A stretch of 5,020 bases of DNA from a virus (taxonomy: Duplodnaviria > Heunggongvirae > Uroviricota > Caudoviricetes), in the IMG/VR virus record IMGVR_UViG_3300013835_000025; one strand, 5' to 3'. The position numbers were made by a program, and so were the translations under genes. The notes under the pieces were generated by a model that was not told where the DNA came from, ran no database searches, and saw nothing but the letters and a program-made list of their open reading frames with translations. Of the stretch, positions 1,642 to 3,987 are shown piece by piece (position 1 is the first letter of the stretch; each line of letters begins with the position of its first letter).

Positions 1642-2071
1642 TGCCGTCACGGTGCTGAAAACTAACCCCGATATGCTGCGGATATTCGTGGATAACGGGA
1701 GTATTGCCTCCACACTGGCGACGTCGTTGTCATTCGAAAAGCGTTACACGCTCAATGTGATTGTGACCGACTTTACCGGTGATTTTGACCTGCTCATTGT
1801 GCCGGTGCTGGCGTGGCTGCGGGAAAATCAGCCCGACATCATGACCACTGACGAAGGCCAGAAAAAAGGCTTCACATTTTATGCAGACATCAACAATGAC
1901 AGCAGCTTTGATATCAGTATCAGCCTGATGCTGACCGAGCGCACGCTGGTCAGTGAGGTTGACGGTGCGCTGCATGTGAAGAATATCCCGGAACCTCCGC
2001 CGCCGGAGCCGGTCACCCGCCCGATGGAGCTGTATATCAATCGCGAACTGGTGAGCAAGTGGGATGAATGA
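1604..2071 (+). CDS. R: Tail completion protein R (155 aa), P2 gpR family
   Basis: ATG at 1604; 155-aa product MLKPDSLRRALTDAVTVLKTNPDMLRIFVDNGS... Length and position after the lysis cassette match P2 gene R. Overlaps lysC 3' end and the S start. Confidence 0.85.
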   Translation: MLKPDSLRRALTDAVTVLKTNPDMLRIFVDNGSIASTLATSLSFEKRYTLNVIVTDFTGDFDLLIVPVLAWLRENQPDIMTTDEGQKKGFTFYADINNDSSFDISISLMLTERTLVSEVDGALHVKNIPEPPPPEPVTRPMELYINRELVSKWDE

Positions 2072-2522
2072 GTTTAAGCGTTTTGAAGACCGGCTGACCG
2101 GACTTATTGAGTCGCTGTCACCGTCAGGGCGCCGGAGACTGGCGGTAGATATTGCGAAGAAGCTGCGCCAGCGCCAGCAGCAGCGAATTAAATTACAAAA
2201 AGCCCCGGATGGTACGCCGTATGTACCGAGAAAAAACCAACCAGTACGAAATAAGAAAGGCCGGATAAAGCGGGAAATGTTTGTGAAATTACGCACTAAC
2301 CGGTTTATGAAAGCAACAGGTAGCGAGAGTGCGGCTGTGGTGGCGTTTGCCAGCGGAGTACAACGAATTGCGCGGGTACATCAATTAGGGCTTAGGGATA
2401 AGCCGGGGCGTAACAGTGCTGTGGTGGAATATCCTGTTCGTGAGTTATTTGGTTTTGACAAGGAATCTATACAATTGATAGAAAGGGAGTTATTAGTGAT
2501 TCTATCGAAAGATGTTATATGA
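2064..2522 (+). CDS. S: Tail completion protein S (152 aa), P2 gpS family; the last ~25 codons lie in AT-rich sequence
   Basis: ATG at 2064 overlapping the R stop (ATGAATGA); product MNEFKRFEDRLTGLIESLSPSGRRRLAVDIAKKLRQRQQQRIKLQK... Position and size fit P2 gene S. Base composition falls from about 2440 onwards, so the C-terminus (...FDKESIQLIERELLVILSKDVI) may be of different origin. Confidence 0.8.
   Translation: MNEFKRFEDRLTGLIESLSPSGRRRLAVDIAKKLRQRQQQRIKLQKAPDGTPYVPRKNQPVRNKKGRIKREMFVKLRTNRFMKATGSESAAVVAFASGVQRIARVHQLGLRDKPGRNSAVVEYPVRELFGFDKESIQLIERELLVILSKDVI
2455..2484 (+). promoter_or_regulatory. Candidate sigma70-like promoter inside the 3' end of S, reading toward the cargo gene
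   Basis: Perfect -35 hexamer TTGACA at 2455-2460; after an 18-nt spacer, TAGAAA at 2479-2484 is a weak -10 (4 of 6 matches to TATAAT). Weak overall, and the region is AT-rich, so chance matches are expected. Confidence 0.18.
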
Positions 2523-3274
2523 GACGGGTGTTTGTGGATAAAAAGTTTTCCATTTTGAGAAAAAGAGTAAAGCATTCTCAAAAGAAAGTTATGGATTGTA
2601 TTATTGCCGACCATAATGCTGATATATGTGTGTTATGCGGGAGTTCTGACGATATTACTCGTGAGCACATTATTCCTCAGTGGGCCTTTGAGTCAAATGC
2701 TGAAAAATCTTTAATTAATAAAAAGAATAATCAGTCAACTCATTACATTAAAGCCACTGTACCAGCATGCAGAGTGTGCAATTCTGATTTGCTGGGAGTG
2801 TTTGAGTATAACCTGAAGAAATTTCTTACGGAAAAGAGGGGGGATGAGTTAACAGATTATGAATATGATTGCATCATATGGTGGTTGCAATACATGGGCT
2901 TTAAGTTGCAATTAATGGATTTACGGACCCGCTTTCTCAGGTATAAAGGGGGTGATTATATCCCTTTCCTTGCAAACTTCCCGGTTGCAATGTTTTGGGG
3001 GAATGTCGATACGACGCCGGGGGATGTCTTCAGGATTATACGAAAATCGCGACGCAATCTGATGTCGAAATGGAAGGATAAAAAACATAATTCTTTGATG
3101 GTTTTTGAAACATCAAACAAGAGTTTTCATTTCTTTCATAAGGTTGATGAATTTATTTTTATTGAAATGCCTCAGGTTAAGAAGGCGTTTTTCTTCTTTT
3201 TTAATAAAGAATTTGACAGCCATGATTTAGCTCATGAGGAGTGTATGAAGATTATAGAGAAGTGTTACAACTAA
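2519..3274 (+). CDS. AT-rich cargo gene: HNH-motif (zinc-ribbon ββα-Me) nuclease-like protein with an uncharacterised C-terminal domain (251 aa)
   Basis: Single uninterrupted ORF in the S-V gap. Motifs seen directly in the translation: C37-V-L-C40-G, R-E-H50-I-I-P, Asn-rich linker, C84-R-V-C87-N88, i.e. CxxC...H...N...CxxC as in HNH endonucleases. Start ATG overlaps the S stop (ATGA); an alternative in-frame ATG is at 2591 (MDCIIADH...). Codon usage is strongly A/T biased, unlike its neighbours. Confidence 0.75.
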   Translation: MRRVFVDKKFSILRKRVKHSQKKVMDCIIADHNADICVLCGSSDDITREHIIPQWAFESNAEKSLINKKNNQSTHYIKATVPACRVCNSDLLGVFEYNLKKFLTEKRGDELTDYEYDCIIWWLQYMGFKLQLMDLRTRFLRYKGGDYIPFLANFPVAMFWGNVDTTPGDVFRIIRKSRRNLMSKWKDKKHNSLMVFETSNKSFHFFHKVDEFIFIEMPQVKKAFFFFFNKEFDSHDLAHEECMKIIEKCYN

Positions 3275-3283
3275 TATTTATTA

Positions 3284-3302
3284 TGTTGTGTCACGGCTGA
3301 CA
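3284..3302 (+). promoter_or_regulatory. Inverted repeat TGTCA-CGGC-TGACA in the cargo-V intergenic region; possible activator site for a V-operon late promoter
   Basis: Perfect 5-bp arms TGTCA/TGACA with a 4-nt spacer at 3288-3301, nested in a TGT...ACA context (TGT 3284-3286, ACA 3300-3302). P2-family late promoters are described as carrying a TGT-N12-ACA partial dyad near -55 that is recognised by Ogr/Delta-type activators; here the spacing is N13 or N10, not N12, and the dyad is only about 50-65 bp from the V ATG, so the geometry is imperfect. Confidence 0.25.
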
Positions 3303-3351
3303 GAGTCCTCCATGATTGCTGCTGGTATCGTCCGGCGGCATCCTTCCCGTT

Positions 3352-3987
3352 ATGAACACTCTCGCAAATATTCAGGAACTCGCGCGCGCACTGCGCAACA
3401 TGATTCGCACCGGCGTTATCGTCGAAACCGACCTTAACGCCGGTCGCTGCCGTGTGCAGACCGGCGGCATGTGCACCGACTGGCTTCAGTGGCTGACCCA
3501 TCGTGCCGGGCGTTCGCGCACATGGTGGGCACCTTCCGTGGGGGAACAGGTGCTGATTCTGGCCGTGGGCGGTGAACTCGACACGGCGTTTGTTCTGCCG
3601 GGGATTTATTCCGGCGATAATCCCGCGCCGTCTGCGTCGGCGGATGCCCTGCATATCCGTTTCCCTGACGGGGCGGTGATTGAGTATGAACCCGAAACCA
3701 GTGCACTTACGGTAAGCGGAATTAAAACGGCCAGCGTGACGGCTTCTGATTCTGTTACTGCCACGGTGCCGGTGGTCACGGTGAAAGCATCAACCCGCGT
3801 CACCCTGGACACACCAGAGGTGGTCTGCACCAACAGGCTGATTACCGGCACGCTGGAAGTGCAGAAGGGCGGGACGATGCGCGGCAACATTGAACACACC
3901 GGCGGTGAACTCTCATCAAACGGTAAGGTACTGCATACCCATAAACACCCCGGCGACAGCGGCGGCACAACCGGGAGTCCTCTATGA
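3352..3987 (+). CDS. V: Baseplate central spike protein V (211 aa), P2 gpV family
   Basis: ATG at 3352 in frame with the 3316..3987 ORF; product MNTLANIQELARALRNMIRTGVIVETDLNAGRCRVQTGGMCTDWLQWL... matches my recollection of P2 gpV. The C-terminus (KVLHTHKHPGDSGGTTGSPL) has a His-rich apex. The track's 3316 start is a TTG with no Shine-Dalgarno. Confidence 0.88.
   Translation: MNTLANIQELARALRNMIRTGVIVETDLNAGRCRVQTGGMCTDWLQWLTHRAGRSRTWWAPSVGEQVLILAVGGELDTAFVLPGIYSGDNPAPSASADALHIRFPDGAVIEYEPETSALTVSGIKTASVTASDSVTATVPVVTVKASTRVTLDTPEVVCTNRLITGTLEVQKGGTMRGNIEHTGGELSSNGKVLHTHKHPGDSGGTTGSPL

What the first reader, a model, noticed from the sequence alone, without database searches (positions are those of the whole stretch)
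2822..3274. Uncharacterised ~150-aa C-terminal domain fused to the HNH core
After the second CxxC, the protein continues for roughly 150 residues rich in aromatic and basic residues (DYEYDCIIWWLQYMGF, RIIRKSRRNLMSKWKDKKH, FHFFHKVDEFIFIEM, KKAFFFFFNKEF, DLAHEECMKIIEKCYN). I recognise no enzymatic or DNA-binding motif here. In single-protein defence nucleases, the non-catalytic portion is often the sensor or specificity module that couples nuclease activation to an infection cue; in homing endonucleases it is the DNA-binding domain. Either way, this is where any novel biology would reside.
Basis: inference. Interest (0 to 1): 0.55.

Follow-up and report, generated by a model that had tools for sequence, protein, structure and literature searches.

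The report
Unknown HNH nuclease in P2 prophage
The 150-residue tail is a real, conserved part of an uncharacterised ~246-residue HNH nuclease that P2-like prophages carry in a slot where sister phages carry anti-phage systems; it matches no known fold, but it looks like the body of the enzyme, not a bolted-on sensor.

Summary

The gene is a 36%-GC insert between tail genes gpS and gpV of an E. coli P2-like prophage. This is the orf30 position of phage P2. The gene is present in 77 of 5,426 complete E. coli genomes and in phage R18C, and every database calls it hypothetical.

The reading "domain fused to an HNH core" is only partly right.
- AlphaFold predicts one compact unit (pTM 0.85). The segment modelled alone scores worse.
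- The segment evolves at the same rate as the HNH part.
- It was found without the HNH only once, in a probable chimera.
- Its first ~115 residues are homologous to a larger ~330-aa HNH_5-like family.

Full-length relatives occur in many phyla as solitary genes with no conserved partner, sometimes next to restriction or defence genes. In sister phages the same slot carries Pycsar, AAA+TIR and RelA/SpoT cargo.

Best reading: a stand-alone anti-phage or inter-element nuclease whose C-terminal part is scaffold and DNA-binding surface (confidence about 0.45). The evidence weighs against a homing endonuclease but does not exclude it.

The parts
2534..3274 (+). Cargo gene: 246-aa HNH-type nuclease. 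An alternative ATG at 2519 overlaps the gpS stop and gives 251 aa. Residue numbers in this report use the 251-aa frame.
   Evidence: ORF list. The RefSeq CDS WP_225104067 starts at the equivalent of 2534. Homologues start at the aligned Met. GC is 36% against 57% for the rest of the window.
2525..2608 (+). N-terminal helical hairpin (residues 3-30), part of the helical platform.
   Evidence: AF2 secondary structure H3-19 and H21-30, pLDDT about 93.
2627..2833 (+). Zinc-stabilised beta-beta-alpha-metal (HNH/HNN) finger, residues 37-105. It holds C37xxC40, E49-H50, N70 and C84xxC87-N88, followed by the long helix 85-105.
   Evidence: These residues are invariant across 24 sequences down to 24% identity. 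There is a sub-threshold Pfam HNH_5 hit (E 0.0099, 16.2 bits against a 27.5-bit cut-off). 31 of 45 members of the sister family hit HNH_5, best E 2.8e-7. AF2 strands 46-50 and 80-84 plus helix 85-105.
2855..2926 (+). Long helix 113-136 (DYEYDCIIWWLQYMGFKLQLMDLR) with invariant W122 and K129. It belongs to the conserved HNH-proximal scaffold.
   Evidence: AF2 pLDDT above 90. W and K are invariant in A2. About 300-360-aa relatives match profile positions 25-130. hhalign aligns the region with the sister family.
2927..3016 (+). Loop region 137-166. It has lower model confidence, is variable among distant relatives and is shortened in some.
   Evidence: pLDDT 61-72 in the full model and below 50 in the segment-only model. 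25% identity in A2. P0071 lacks most of it.
3017..3094 (+). Basic helices 167-192 (RIIRKSRRNLMSKWKDKKHNS). R175, K186, K189 and S192 are invariant among close relatives. Candidate nucleic-acid-binding surface.
   Evidence: Invariant columns in A1. Majority-conserved R/K pattern in A2. AF2 helices. The DNA-binding role is inferred.
3095..3199 (+). Phe-rich four-stranded antiparallel beta meander, residues 193-227 (LMVFE / FHFFH / FIFIE / AFFFF).
   Evidence: AF2 strands 193-197, 204-208, 212-217 and 222-227, pLDDT about 90. It is as conserved as the HNH core, 71% and 37% identity. It aligns with the sister family up to residue 217.
3221..3268 (+). C-terminal amphipathic helix, residues 235-250, packing on the meander.
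   Evidence: AF2 H235-250.
2064..2522 (+). gpS tail-completion gene. This is a divergent allele whose 3' two-thirds travel with the cargo.
   Evidence: Pfam Phage_tail_S E 2.5e-29. It diverges from Wphi gpS after about nt 78. The allele is in 79 E. coli genomes and the HNH gene in 77.
3352..3987 (+). gpV baseplate spike gene, downstream border of the slot.
   Evidence: Pfam Phage_base_V and Phage_spike. RefSeq start. Homology with cargo-less phages resumes at about 3315-3330.

Best explanation
The segment is the C-terminal 60% of a single-protein, zinc-stabilised HNH (HNN-variant) nuclease that P2-like prophages carry as accessory cargo between tail genes gpS and gpV. I read the protein as a stand-alone anti-phage or inter-element competition nuclease.

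The 150 residues are not a detachable sensor. They are the body of the enzyme.
- Helix 113-136, together with the N-terminal hairpin and the HNH helix, forms a helical platform that holds the small catalytic finger.
- The basic helices 167-192 (R175, K186, K189), with W122 and K129, most likely form the nucleic-acid-binding surface next to the active site.
- The Phe-rich four-stranded meander plus the last helix forms a hydrophobic subdomain. It either closes the core or mediates self-association.

Shown: the gene, its conservation, the intact catalytic residues, the compact predicted fold, the absence of a partner gene, and the nature of the slot.

Inferred: nuclease activity, DNA binding by the basic helices, the defence role, and how the host's own DNA is spared. 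Candidates for the last point are a substrate feature such as modified or branched DNA, or gating by the C-terminal subdomain.
For: Catalytic set. C37, C40, E49-H50, N70, C84, C87 and N88 are invariant in 24 sequences down to 24% identity. The HNH_5 signal is sub-threshold in this protein and present in 31 of 45 sister-family members.

One compact unit. AF2 gives pTM 0.85 and pLDDT 83. The segment alone scores lower. N- and C-terminal halves evolve at equal rates. The architecture is shared with a ~330-aa family (hhalign 99.6%, residues 27-217).

No second catalytic motif. The only invariant C-terminal residues in A2 are W122 and K129, with S192 and F205 nearly invariant.

Defence-type context.
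- The gene is a 36%-GC insert in the P2 orf30 slot. Wphi has an empty slot.
- The same slot in sister E. coli P2-like phages carries Pycsar (PycC E 1e-128), an AAA+TIR protein and a RelA/SpoT protein.
- A RefSeq prophage has Pycsar 15 bp after gpS in the same orientation as this gene.
- The gene keeps this slot in Klebsiella, Kosakonia and environmental P2-like phages down to about 45% identity.

Solitary gene elsewhere. In about 77 loci from Vibrio, Shewanella, Flavobacterium, Pedobacter, Desulfobulbaceae, Gracilibacteria and others, no neighbour family recurs beyond close relatives. Immediate neighbours include Mrr/type IV restriction enzymes, GajB, LmuA, bSEFIR, PD-Lambda-3_B, BrxH, Schlafen/AlbA_2, relaxase and integrase genes.
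Against: - There is no match to any PADLOC v2 defence model and no experimental report.
- The gene follows gpS by 12 bp, or overlaps its stop, inside the late morphogenetic gene cluster. No credible sigma-70 promoter was found upstream. Expression in the lysogen, which a defence gene needs, is not shown.
- The enrichment of defence neighbours was not tested against a control. Many neighbours are housekeeping genes.
- No immunity or partner gene explains how a constitutive nuclease would spare the host.
- The roles assigned to the basic helices and the beta meander rest on a predicted structure only. Coordinates could not be inspected.
Confidence: 0.45

Rival explanations
1. Free-standing HNH homing endonuclease. 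The gene cuts the gpS-gpV junction of P2-like genomes that lack it and is copied in by repair. The C-terminal 150 residues would be its DNA-recognition domain.
For: - It is an HNH gene wedged between two conserved phage genes, co-oriented and tightly packed.
- It is sporadic: 77 of about 1,530 E. coli genomes with this gpV region.
- It has low GC.
- The flanking gpS allele is linked to the gene, as a co-conversion tract would be.
- It occurs in the viable phage R18C.
Against: - It has no NUMOD, IENR1, AP2 or helix-turn-helix type DNA-binding module, and no fold match.
- The same slot, and the same junctions inside gpS, exchange cargo that carries no nuclease (Pycsar, an ATPase, RelA/SpoT). Turnover of the slot therefore needs no homing.
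- The gpS flank differs by about 40% over about 380 nt. That is a different allele lineage, not a few immunity polymorphisms.
- Full-length relatives are solitary chromosomal genes outside phages in many phyla.
- Among 50,697 phage records only R18C has it. From my own knowledge, HNH homing genes abound in virulent phages, so this scarcity argues against homing.
- The protein stayed intact down to about 45% identity in the same slot, unlike the decay cycle typical of homing genes.
Confidence: 0.12
2. A nuclease used by the phage itself during lytic growth, transcribed with the late genes. Possible jobs are trimming branched DNA, degrading host or competitor DNA late in infection, or acting against satellites such as P4.
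For: - It has the same orientation as gpS, lies 12 bp after it, and has no detectable promoter or terminator of its own.
- It is retained in the viable phage R18C.
- The CxxC...CxxC-N pattern resembles the zinc HNN site of T4 endonuclease VII, a late-expressed debranching enzyme. This comparison is from memory and was not tested.
Against: - Most P2-like phages lack it: 52 of 72 sampled contigs have an empty slot. It is therefore not needed for P2 development.
- Relatives in other phyla sit in non-phage contexts with 100-300 bp intergenic gaps on either side, wide enough for promoters of their own.
- A bona fide defence system (Pycsar) sits in the identical position and orientation, so position alone does not imply a lytic-cycle role.
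Confidence: 0.15
3. Modification-dependent (type IV, McrA-like) restriction enzyme. The C-terminal subdomain would read modified bases such as hmC or glucosyl-hmC, which would explain why a solitary nuclease without a methyltransferase is harmless to the host. This is a special case of the defence reading but assigns the tail a different job.
For: - There is no methyltransferase or immunity partner: 1 of 131 immediate neighbours is a type II methyltransferase.
- Some relatives lie next to Mrr/type IV enzymes.
- From established knowledge, prophage-borne solitary HNH type IV enzymes exist (McrA of e14), and P2 already excludes T-even phages through Tin.
Against: - No aromatic-cage or flipped-base pocket could be examined.
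- The tail is not an independent domain.
Confidence: 0.1

Closest known systems
Pfam HNH_5 (PF14279), within the His-Me finger superfamily (groups 1 and 8 of Jablonska et al. 2017, PMC5714182)
   Same: CxxC...(D/E)H...N...CxxC(N/H) zinc-stabilised beta-beta-alpha-metal finger. The N-terminal 21 positions of the profile match this protein. 31 of 45 members of the ~330-aa sister family also match.
   Different: The score is below the gathering threshold (16.2 against 27.5 bits). About 30 residues (a beta hairpin, 51-79) are inserted between the catalytic His strand and the second CxxC. The finger is embedded in about 180 further residues that no Pfam model covers.
The uncharacterised ~300-360-aa HNH_5-like family found here (alignment A3: P0122, P0124, P0137, P0161 and others)
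   Same: It is homologous over residues 27-217 (hhalign probability 99.6%, E 1.4e-24). This covers the HNH finger, the WW-helix and the first beta strands.
   Different: It has about 130 extra C-terminal residues and lacks the terminal helix of this family. It is also unnamed in public sources.
PADLOC candidate component PDC-M01B
   Same: Weak profile similarity around the HNH finger. The window protein gives E 0.033. The sister-family member P0161 gives E 9.7e-6 over the second CxxC plus the following helix.
   Different: PDC-M01 carries PADLOC's PDC-M label, which I take from memory to mean a multi-gene candidate system. Here there is no conserved partner gene. The match for the window protein is not significant.
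Septu PtuB (an HNH nuclease paired with the ATPase PtuA)
   Same: A PARIS paper (PMC11464382) uses PF14279 to annotate HNH endonuclease domains among AAA15/21-ATPase defence proteins. That Septu PtuB is such an HNH_5-type defence nuclease is my own knowledge.
   Different: There is no ATPase neighbour in the window (the flanks are gpS and gpV) or as a conserved neighbour elsewhere. There is no PADLOC PtuB hit.
McrA of prophage e14 (type IV HNH restriction enzyme); comparison from established knowledge, not tested by alignment
   Same: A prophage-borne, solitary HNH nuclease without a methyltransferase, made of a catalytic finger plus a non-catalytic part.
   Different: In McrA the HNH is C-terminal. 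No sequence or structural similarity to any PDB entry was detected.
Free-standing phage HNH homing endonucleases (T4 MobA-E, I-HmuI class)
   Same: An HNH gene between conserved phage genes, with presence/absence polymorphism.
   Different: It lacks their DNA-binding modules, is absent from virulent phage genomes, has chromosomal non-phage relatives, and sits in a slot that also exchanges non-nuclease cargo.
P2 accessory genes (orf30 in the same slot; old, tin and Z/fun in other slots)
   Same: AT-rich non-essential cargo of P2-like phages. The R18C paper notes that this ORF replaces orf30 (PMC6823313).
   Different: No sequence comparison with P2's own orf30, old, tin or fun was made. The R18C paper gives orf30 as only 261 bp against 741 bp for this ORF, and its PSI-BLAST found no motif. 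The S-V slot is not one of the two classical P2 defence hotspots described in the papers read.

Membership tests
HNH / His-Me finger nucleases | Beta-beta-alpha-metal topology around the catalytic His | tested here: met
   The AF2 model has strand 46-50 ending in E49-H50, strand 80-84 and helix 85-105, with pLDDT above 90 for these blocks. This is a predicted structure, not an experimental one.
HNH / His-Me finger nucleases | Conserved general-base His preceded by an acidic residue, a structural Asn, and a metal-ligand Asn/His on the helix; two CxxC pairs in the zinc-bound subclass | tested here: met
   C37, C40, E49, H50, N70, C84, C87 and N88 are invariant across 24 diverged sequences. Assigning N70 and N88 to those roles is an inference.
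Pfam HNH_5 (PF14279) | Score at or above the curated gathering threshold (27.5 bits) | tested here: not met
   16.2 bits, E 0.0099, and only profile positions 1-21 of 56 are matched.
HNH / His-Me finger nucleases | Metal-dependent nuclease activity | not testable with these tools
   Requires purified protein.
Free-standing homing endonuclease | Dedicated sequence-specific DNA-binding module (NUMOD, IENR1, HTH, AP2, zinc-finger extension) | tested here: not met
   [not shown]
Free-standing homing endonuclease | Presence/absence polymorphism at one fixed site between conserved genes | tested here: met
   77 E. coli genomes carry the gene and about 1,450 do not. The slot is empty in Wphi and in 52 of 72 sampled contigs.
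Free-standing homing endonuclease | Cleavage of the gene-less allele and super-Mendelian inheritance | not testable with these tools
   Needs phage crosses and an in vitro cleavage assay.
Free-standing homing endonuclease | Confinement to phage, intron or intein contexts | tested here: not met
   Relatives at 30-41% identity are solitary chromosomal genes in Bacteroidota, Vibrionaceae, Desulfobulbaceae and others.
Known anti-phage defence systems (PADLOC-DB v2.0.0) | Significant match to a defence-protein model | tested here: not met
   The best hits are PDC-M01B at E 0.033 and Cas8c at E 0.036, both noise level. Newer DefenseFinder models could not be searched.
Known anti-phage defence systems (generic criterion) | Location in a hotspot that carries validated defence systems in sister elements | tested here: met
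   Pycsar, AAA+TIR (PDC-S59) and RelA/SpoT (PDC-S33) occupy the same gpS-gpV slot.
Known anti-phage defence systems (generic criterion) | Reduced plating of phages when the gene is expressed | not testable with these tools
   Needs efficiency-of-plating assays.
Type II restriction-modification | Adjacent cognate methyltransferase | tested here: not met
   The flanks in the window are gpS and gpV. Only 1 of 131 immediate neighbours of relatives is a type II methyltransferase, and no neighbour family is conserved.
Type IV (McrA-like) restriction | Recognisable modified-base reader domain | tested here: inconclusive
   No similarity to a known reader was found. A novel reader cannot be excluded from a predicted model.
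Septu (PtuAB) | PtuA ABC-type ATPase encoded next to the HNH protein | tested here: not met
   There is no ATPase in the slot and none is conserved near relatives.

The most novel reading that the evidence does not exclude
The protein is the prophage-borne representative of a widespread, unnamed family of single-protein HNH immunity nucleases. The family has about 35 full-length cluster representatives and 855 including the ~330-aa sister family, spread from Enterobacterales to Bacteroidota and Gracilibacteria. Its non-catalytic alpha/beta part would be a new fold that gates or targets the nuclease. The gpS-gpV slot would be a further, so far unlisted, defence hotspot of P2-like phages.
Probability: 0.35. 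Interest if true: 0.6.

Novelty: new variant of a known kind. Interest (0 to 1): 0.45.

Why it matters
P2-like prophages occur in roughly a quarter of complete E. coli genomes (1,530 of 5,426 matched this region), and their accessory slots have repeatedly yielded new anti-phage systems. This gene is an unannotated, well-conserved nuclease in such a slot, and it belongs to a family that no Pfam, PADLOC or NCBIfam model captures.

If it restricts phages, it adds a one-gene system of about 740 bp and a further P2 hotspot. Its tail would be an example of how a minimal HNH finger is controlled without a partner protein.

If it does not, the result still corrects the domain picture. The tail is enzyme body, not an add-on.

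Tried and rejected
- AFDB50 Foldseek. The library was not available.
- A second nuclease site in the tail (PD-(D/E)xK read from 'HKVDEF..IE..K'). Rejected, because these positions are not conserved in distant relatives and are replaced in the sister family.
- A conserved partner, antitoxin or methylase. All-against-all clustering of 653 neighbour ORFs from about 77 loci found no family shared beyond close relatives.
- Independent occurrence of the tail. P0098 (HARE-HTH plus the last ~72 residues) looked like a domain swap. None of its 211 relatives carries the module. The ~230-aa relatives have what looks by eye like a restriction-endonuclease-type C-terminus (not tested). I treat P0098 as a chimera or deletion fusion.
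- Own promoter. There is a perfect TTGACA at 2455-2460 but no acceptable -10 element. The scan shows no more sites than shuffled sequence does.
- Literature. Nothing was found on this protein, its accession numbers or its PHROG. The R18C paper only records it as a hypothetical ORF replacing orf30.
- Plasmids. No homologue.

Full report

**The observation.** Residues 102-251 of the cargo protein map to 2822-3271, and all quoted peptides are present. The ORF is real.
- A 251-codon open frame at this composition has a chance probability of about 2e-9.
- There are 44 close full-length homologues at 41-98% identity.
- A profile search of 1.84 billion representatives finds 855 relatives, about 35 of them full length.
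- The segment is strongly aromatic (19.3%, 19 Phe) compared with 4-9% in neighbouring proteins. Its basic content (15%) is ordinary.
- RefSeq, GenBank (R18C ORF16) and UniRef call it hypothetical. One UniRef entry says 'HNH endonuclease'.

**The catalytic part.**
- Pfam gives only a sub-threshold HNH_5 hit on the first CxxC-EH stretch.
- C37, C40, E49-H50, N70, C84, C87 and N88 are invariant in an alignment reaching 24% identity.
- AlphaFold2 places them on a beta-beta-alpha unit: strand 46-50, an inserted hairpin, strand 80-84 and helix 85-105.
- The pattern (an acidic residue plus His, then Asn, then CxxC-Asn) is the zinc-bound HNN flavour of the His-Me finger. This assignment is an inference from established knowledge of the superfamily (PMC5714182).

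**The tail itself.** The full-length model is confident (pLDDT 83, pTM 0.85) and forms one compact body. Its elements, in order:
- the N-terminal hairpin (3-30), the HNH helix (85-105) and a long helix (113-136, with invariant W122 and K129), which together form a helical platform;
- a lower-confidence loop (137-166);
- two basic helices (167-192);
- a Phe-rich four-stranded meander (193-227);
- a final helix (235-250).

Modelled alone, the segment keeps the same secondary structure but loses confidence (pLDDT 70.6, pTM 0.67), as expected if it leans on the N-terminal half.

**Is it a fused domain?** Four results say no.
1. N- and C-terminal parts evolve at the same rate: 66% and 66% among close relatives, 35% and 31% among distant ones. 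The meander is as conserved as the HNH core.
2. A larger family of ~300-360-aa proteins, themselves HNH_5-like (31 of 45 members), aligns with this family from residue 27 to 217 at 99.6% probability. The helix and the first strands are therefore ancient companions of this HNH.
3. All 44 close homologues, and the roughly 80 genomic relatives found, keep the whole architecture.
4. The single protein with the last ~72 residues on another N-terminus (P0098, HARE-HTH at E 5.6e-5) has no replicate among 211 relatives and is best read as a chimera.

No second catalytic motif is conserved in the tail.

**Genomic setting.**
- The gene sits where P2 has orf30. The R18C paper noted the replacement and found no motif (PMC6823313). 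Wphi has an empty 66-bp slot.
- 77 of 5,426 complete E. coli genomes carry the gene, always chromosomally, and a few carry it split.
- Among 50,697 phage records only R18C has it, and no plasmid does.
- Homologues in Klebsiella, Kosakonia and environmental contigs, down to about 45% identity, occupy the same gpS-gpV slot.
- The window's gpS diverges from the Wphi allele after about 78 nt. That allele is found in 79 genomes, against 77 for the gene.
- Genomes that share only the first part of the allele carry other cargo: a Pycsar operon 15 bp after gpS in the same orientation, or a reverse-strand ATP-binding protein.
- In a sample of 72 P2-like viral contigs, 52 slots are empty. 16 hold an unknown 261-aa (222 aa in one) reverse-strand ORF that looks like a membrane protein by eye. 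The remaining four hold Pycsar (PycC E 1e-128), an AAA+TIR protein (PDC-S59), a RelA/SpoT protein (PDC-S33) and an unknown 247-aa ORF.

The slot is therefore a cargo-exchange site that carries recognised defence systems. The reviews and surveys read here list old/tin and Z/fun as the classical P2 hotspots and mention others 'within the tail genes'.

**Relatives outside P2.** Full-length relatives at 30-41% identity occur in Vibrio, Photobacterium, Shewanella, Colwellia, Halomonas, Acinetobacter, Desulfobulbaceae, Flavobacterium, Chryseobacterium, Pedobacter, Sphingobacterium, Mucilaginibacter, Gracilibacteria and a Paraclostridium genome assembled from a metagenome.

They usually stand alone with 100-300 bp intergenic gaps. 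Clustering 653 neighbouring ORFs found no conserved partner.

Among 131 immediate neighbours are Mrr/type IV restriction enzymes, GajB, LmuA, bSEFIR, PD-Lambda-3_B, BrxH, Schlafen/AlbA_2, NACHT-associated restriction-endonuclease domains, a relaxase and an integrase. Many are ordinary metabolic genes. This suggests variable, defence-rich regions, but it was not compared with a control set.

**Interpretation.** The most economical reading is a stand-alone nuclease used in conflicts between mobile elements, most likely to restrict incoming phage DNA. The tail serves as scaffold and substrate-binding surface and possibly as a self-association or gating element.

Two points weaken this.
- No promoter was found for expression in lysogens. 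The gene is only 12 bp from gpS. Pycsar sits the same way, however.
- There is no explanation for how the host's own DNA is protected.

Three rivals remain.
- The evidence weighs against homing (0.12). Non-nuclease cargo swaps at the same junctions, relatives sit outside phages, homing-type DNA-binding modules are absent, and the gene is missing from virulent phage genomes.
- A lytic-cycle function of the phage itself (0.15) fits the gene's position but not its dispensability or its non-phage relatives.
- A type IV, modification-dependent enzyme (0.10) would explain the lack of a partner, but no reader fold was detected.

**Novelty.** The catalytic principle is known. The family, its non-catalytic architecture and its role are not described in any library or paper searched. 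I rate it a new variant of a known kind, of moderate interest, and cheap to test.

Noticed in passing
window 2064-2522 and 3275-3351; loci L141-L220, L221, L222: The gpS-gpV slot of E. coli P2-like phages is a cargo-exchange site. In 72 sampled contigs, 52 slots are empty. 16 hold an unknown 261-aa (222 aa in one) reverse-strand ORF that looks like a membrane protein by eye, with no Pfam or PADLOC hit. The remaining four hold Pycsar, an AAA+TIR protein, a RelA/SpoT protein and an unknown 247-aa ORF. The papers read here do not list this slot among the classical P2 hotspots.
   Followed up: partly
window 2140-2522 (gpS): The gpS allele diverges from the Wphi allele after about nt 78 and becomes AT-rich from about 2350. 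Genomes with other cargo share it only up to window 2348 or 2383, so recombination junctions lie inside the essential gene and each cargo brings its own gpS 3' end.
   Followed up: partly
P0098 (145 aa; two ~1.1-kb ENA contigs): A protein that joins a HARE-HTH domain (PF05066, E 5.6e-5) to the last ~72 residues (beta meander plus helix) of this family. It is unreplicated among 211 relatives and is probably a chimera or deletion fusion. If real, it would show that the terminal subdomain is portable.
   Followed up: yes
L003-L005, 5926-6576 (- strand), Klebsiella P2-like prophages: In Klebsiella the slot holds the HNH homologue plus an extra 216-aa reverse-strand gene with no Pfam or PADLOC match.
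   Followed up: partly
[not shown]
   Followed up: no
window 2455-2460: A perfect -35 hexamer (TTGACA) lies inside the AT-rich 3' end of gpS, about 75 nt upstream of the cargo start. No acceptable -10 follows at 16-18 nt, so expression signals for the cargo remain unresolved.
   Followed up: partly
window 2519-2536: There are two possible starts. ATG 2519 overlaps the gpS stop (ATGA), which would allow translational coupling. GTG 2534 is the start used by RefSeq and corresponds to the Met of most homologues.
   Followed up: partly
NZ_CP070152, NZ_CP133871, NZ_CP149553 (hits H83, H119, H120): In a few E. coli genomes the gene is annotated as two hypothetical proteins, which suggests occasional frameshift inactivation.
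   Followed up: no
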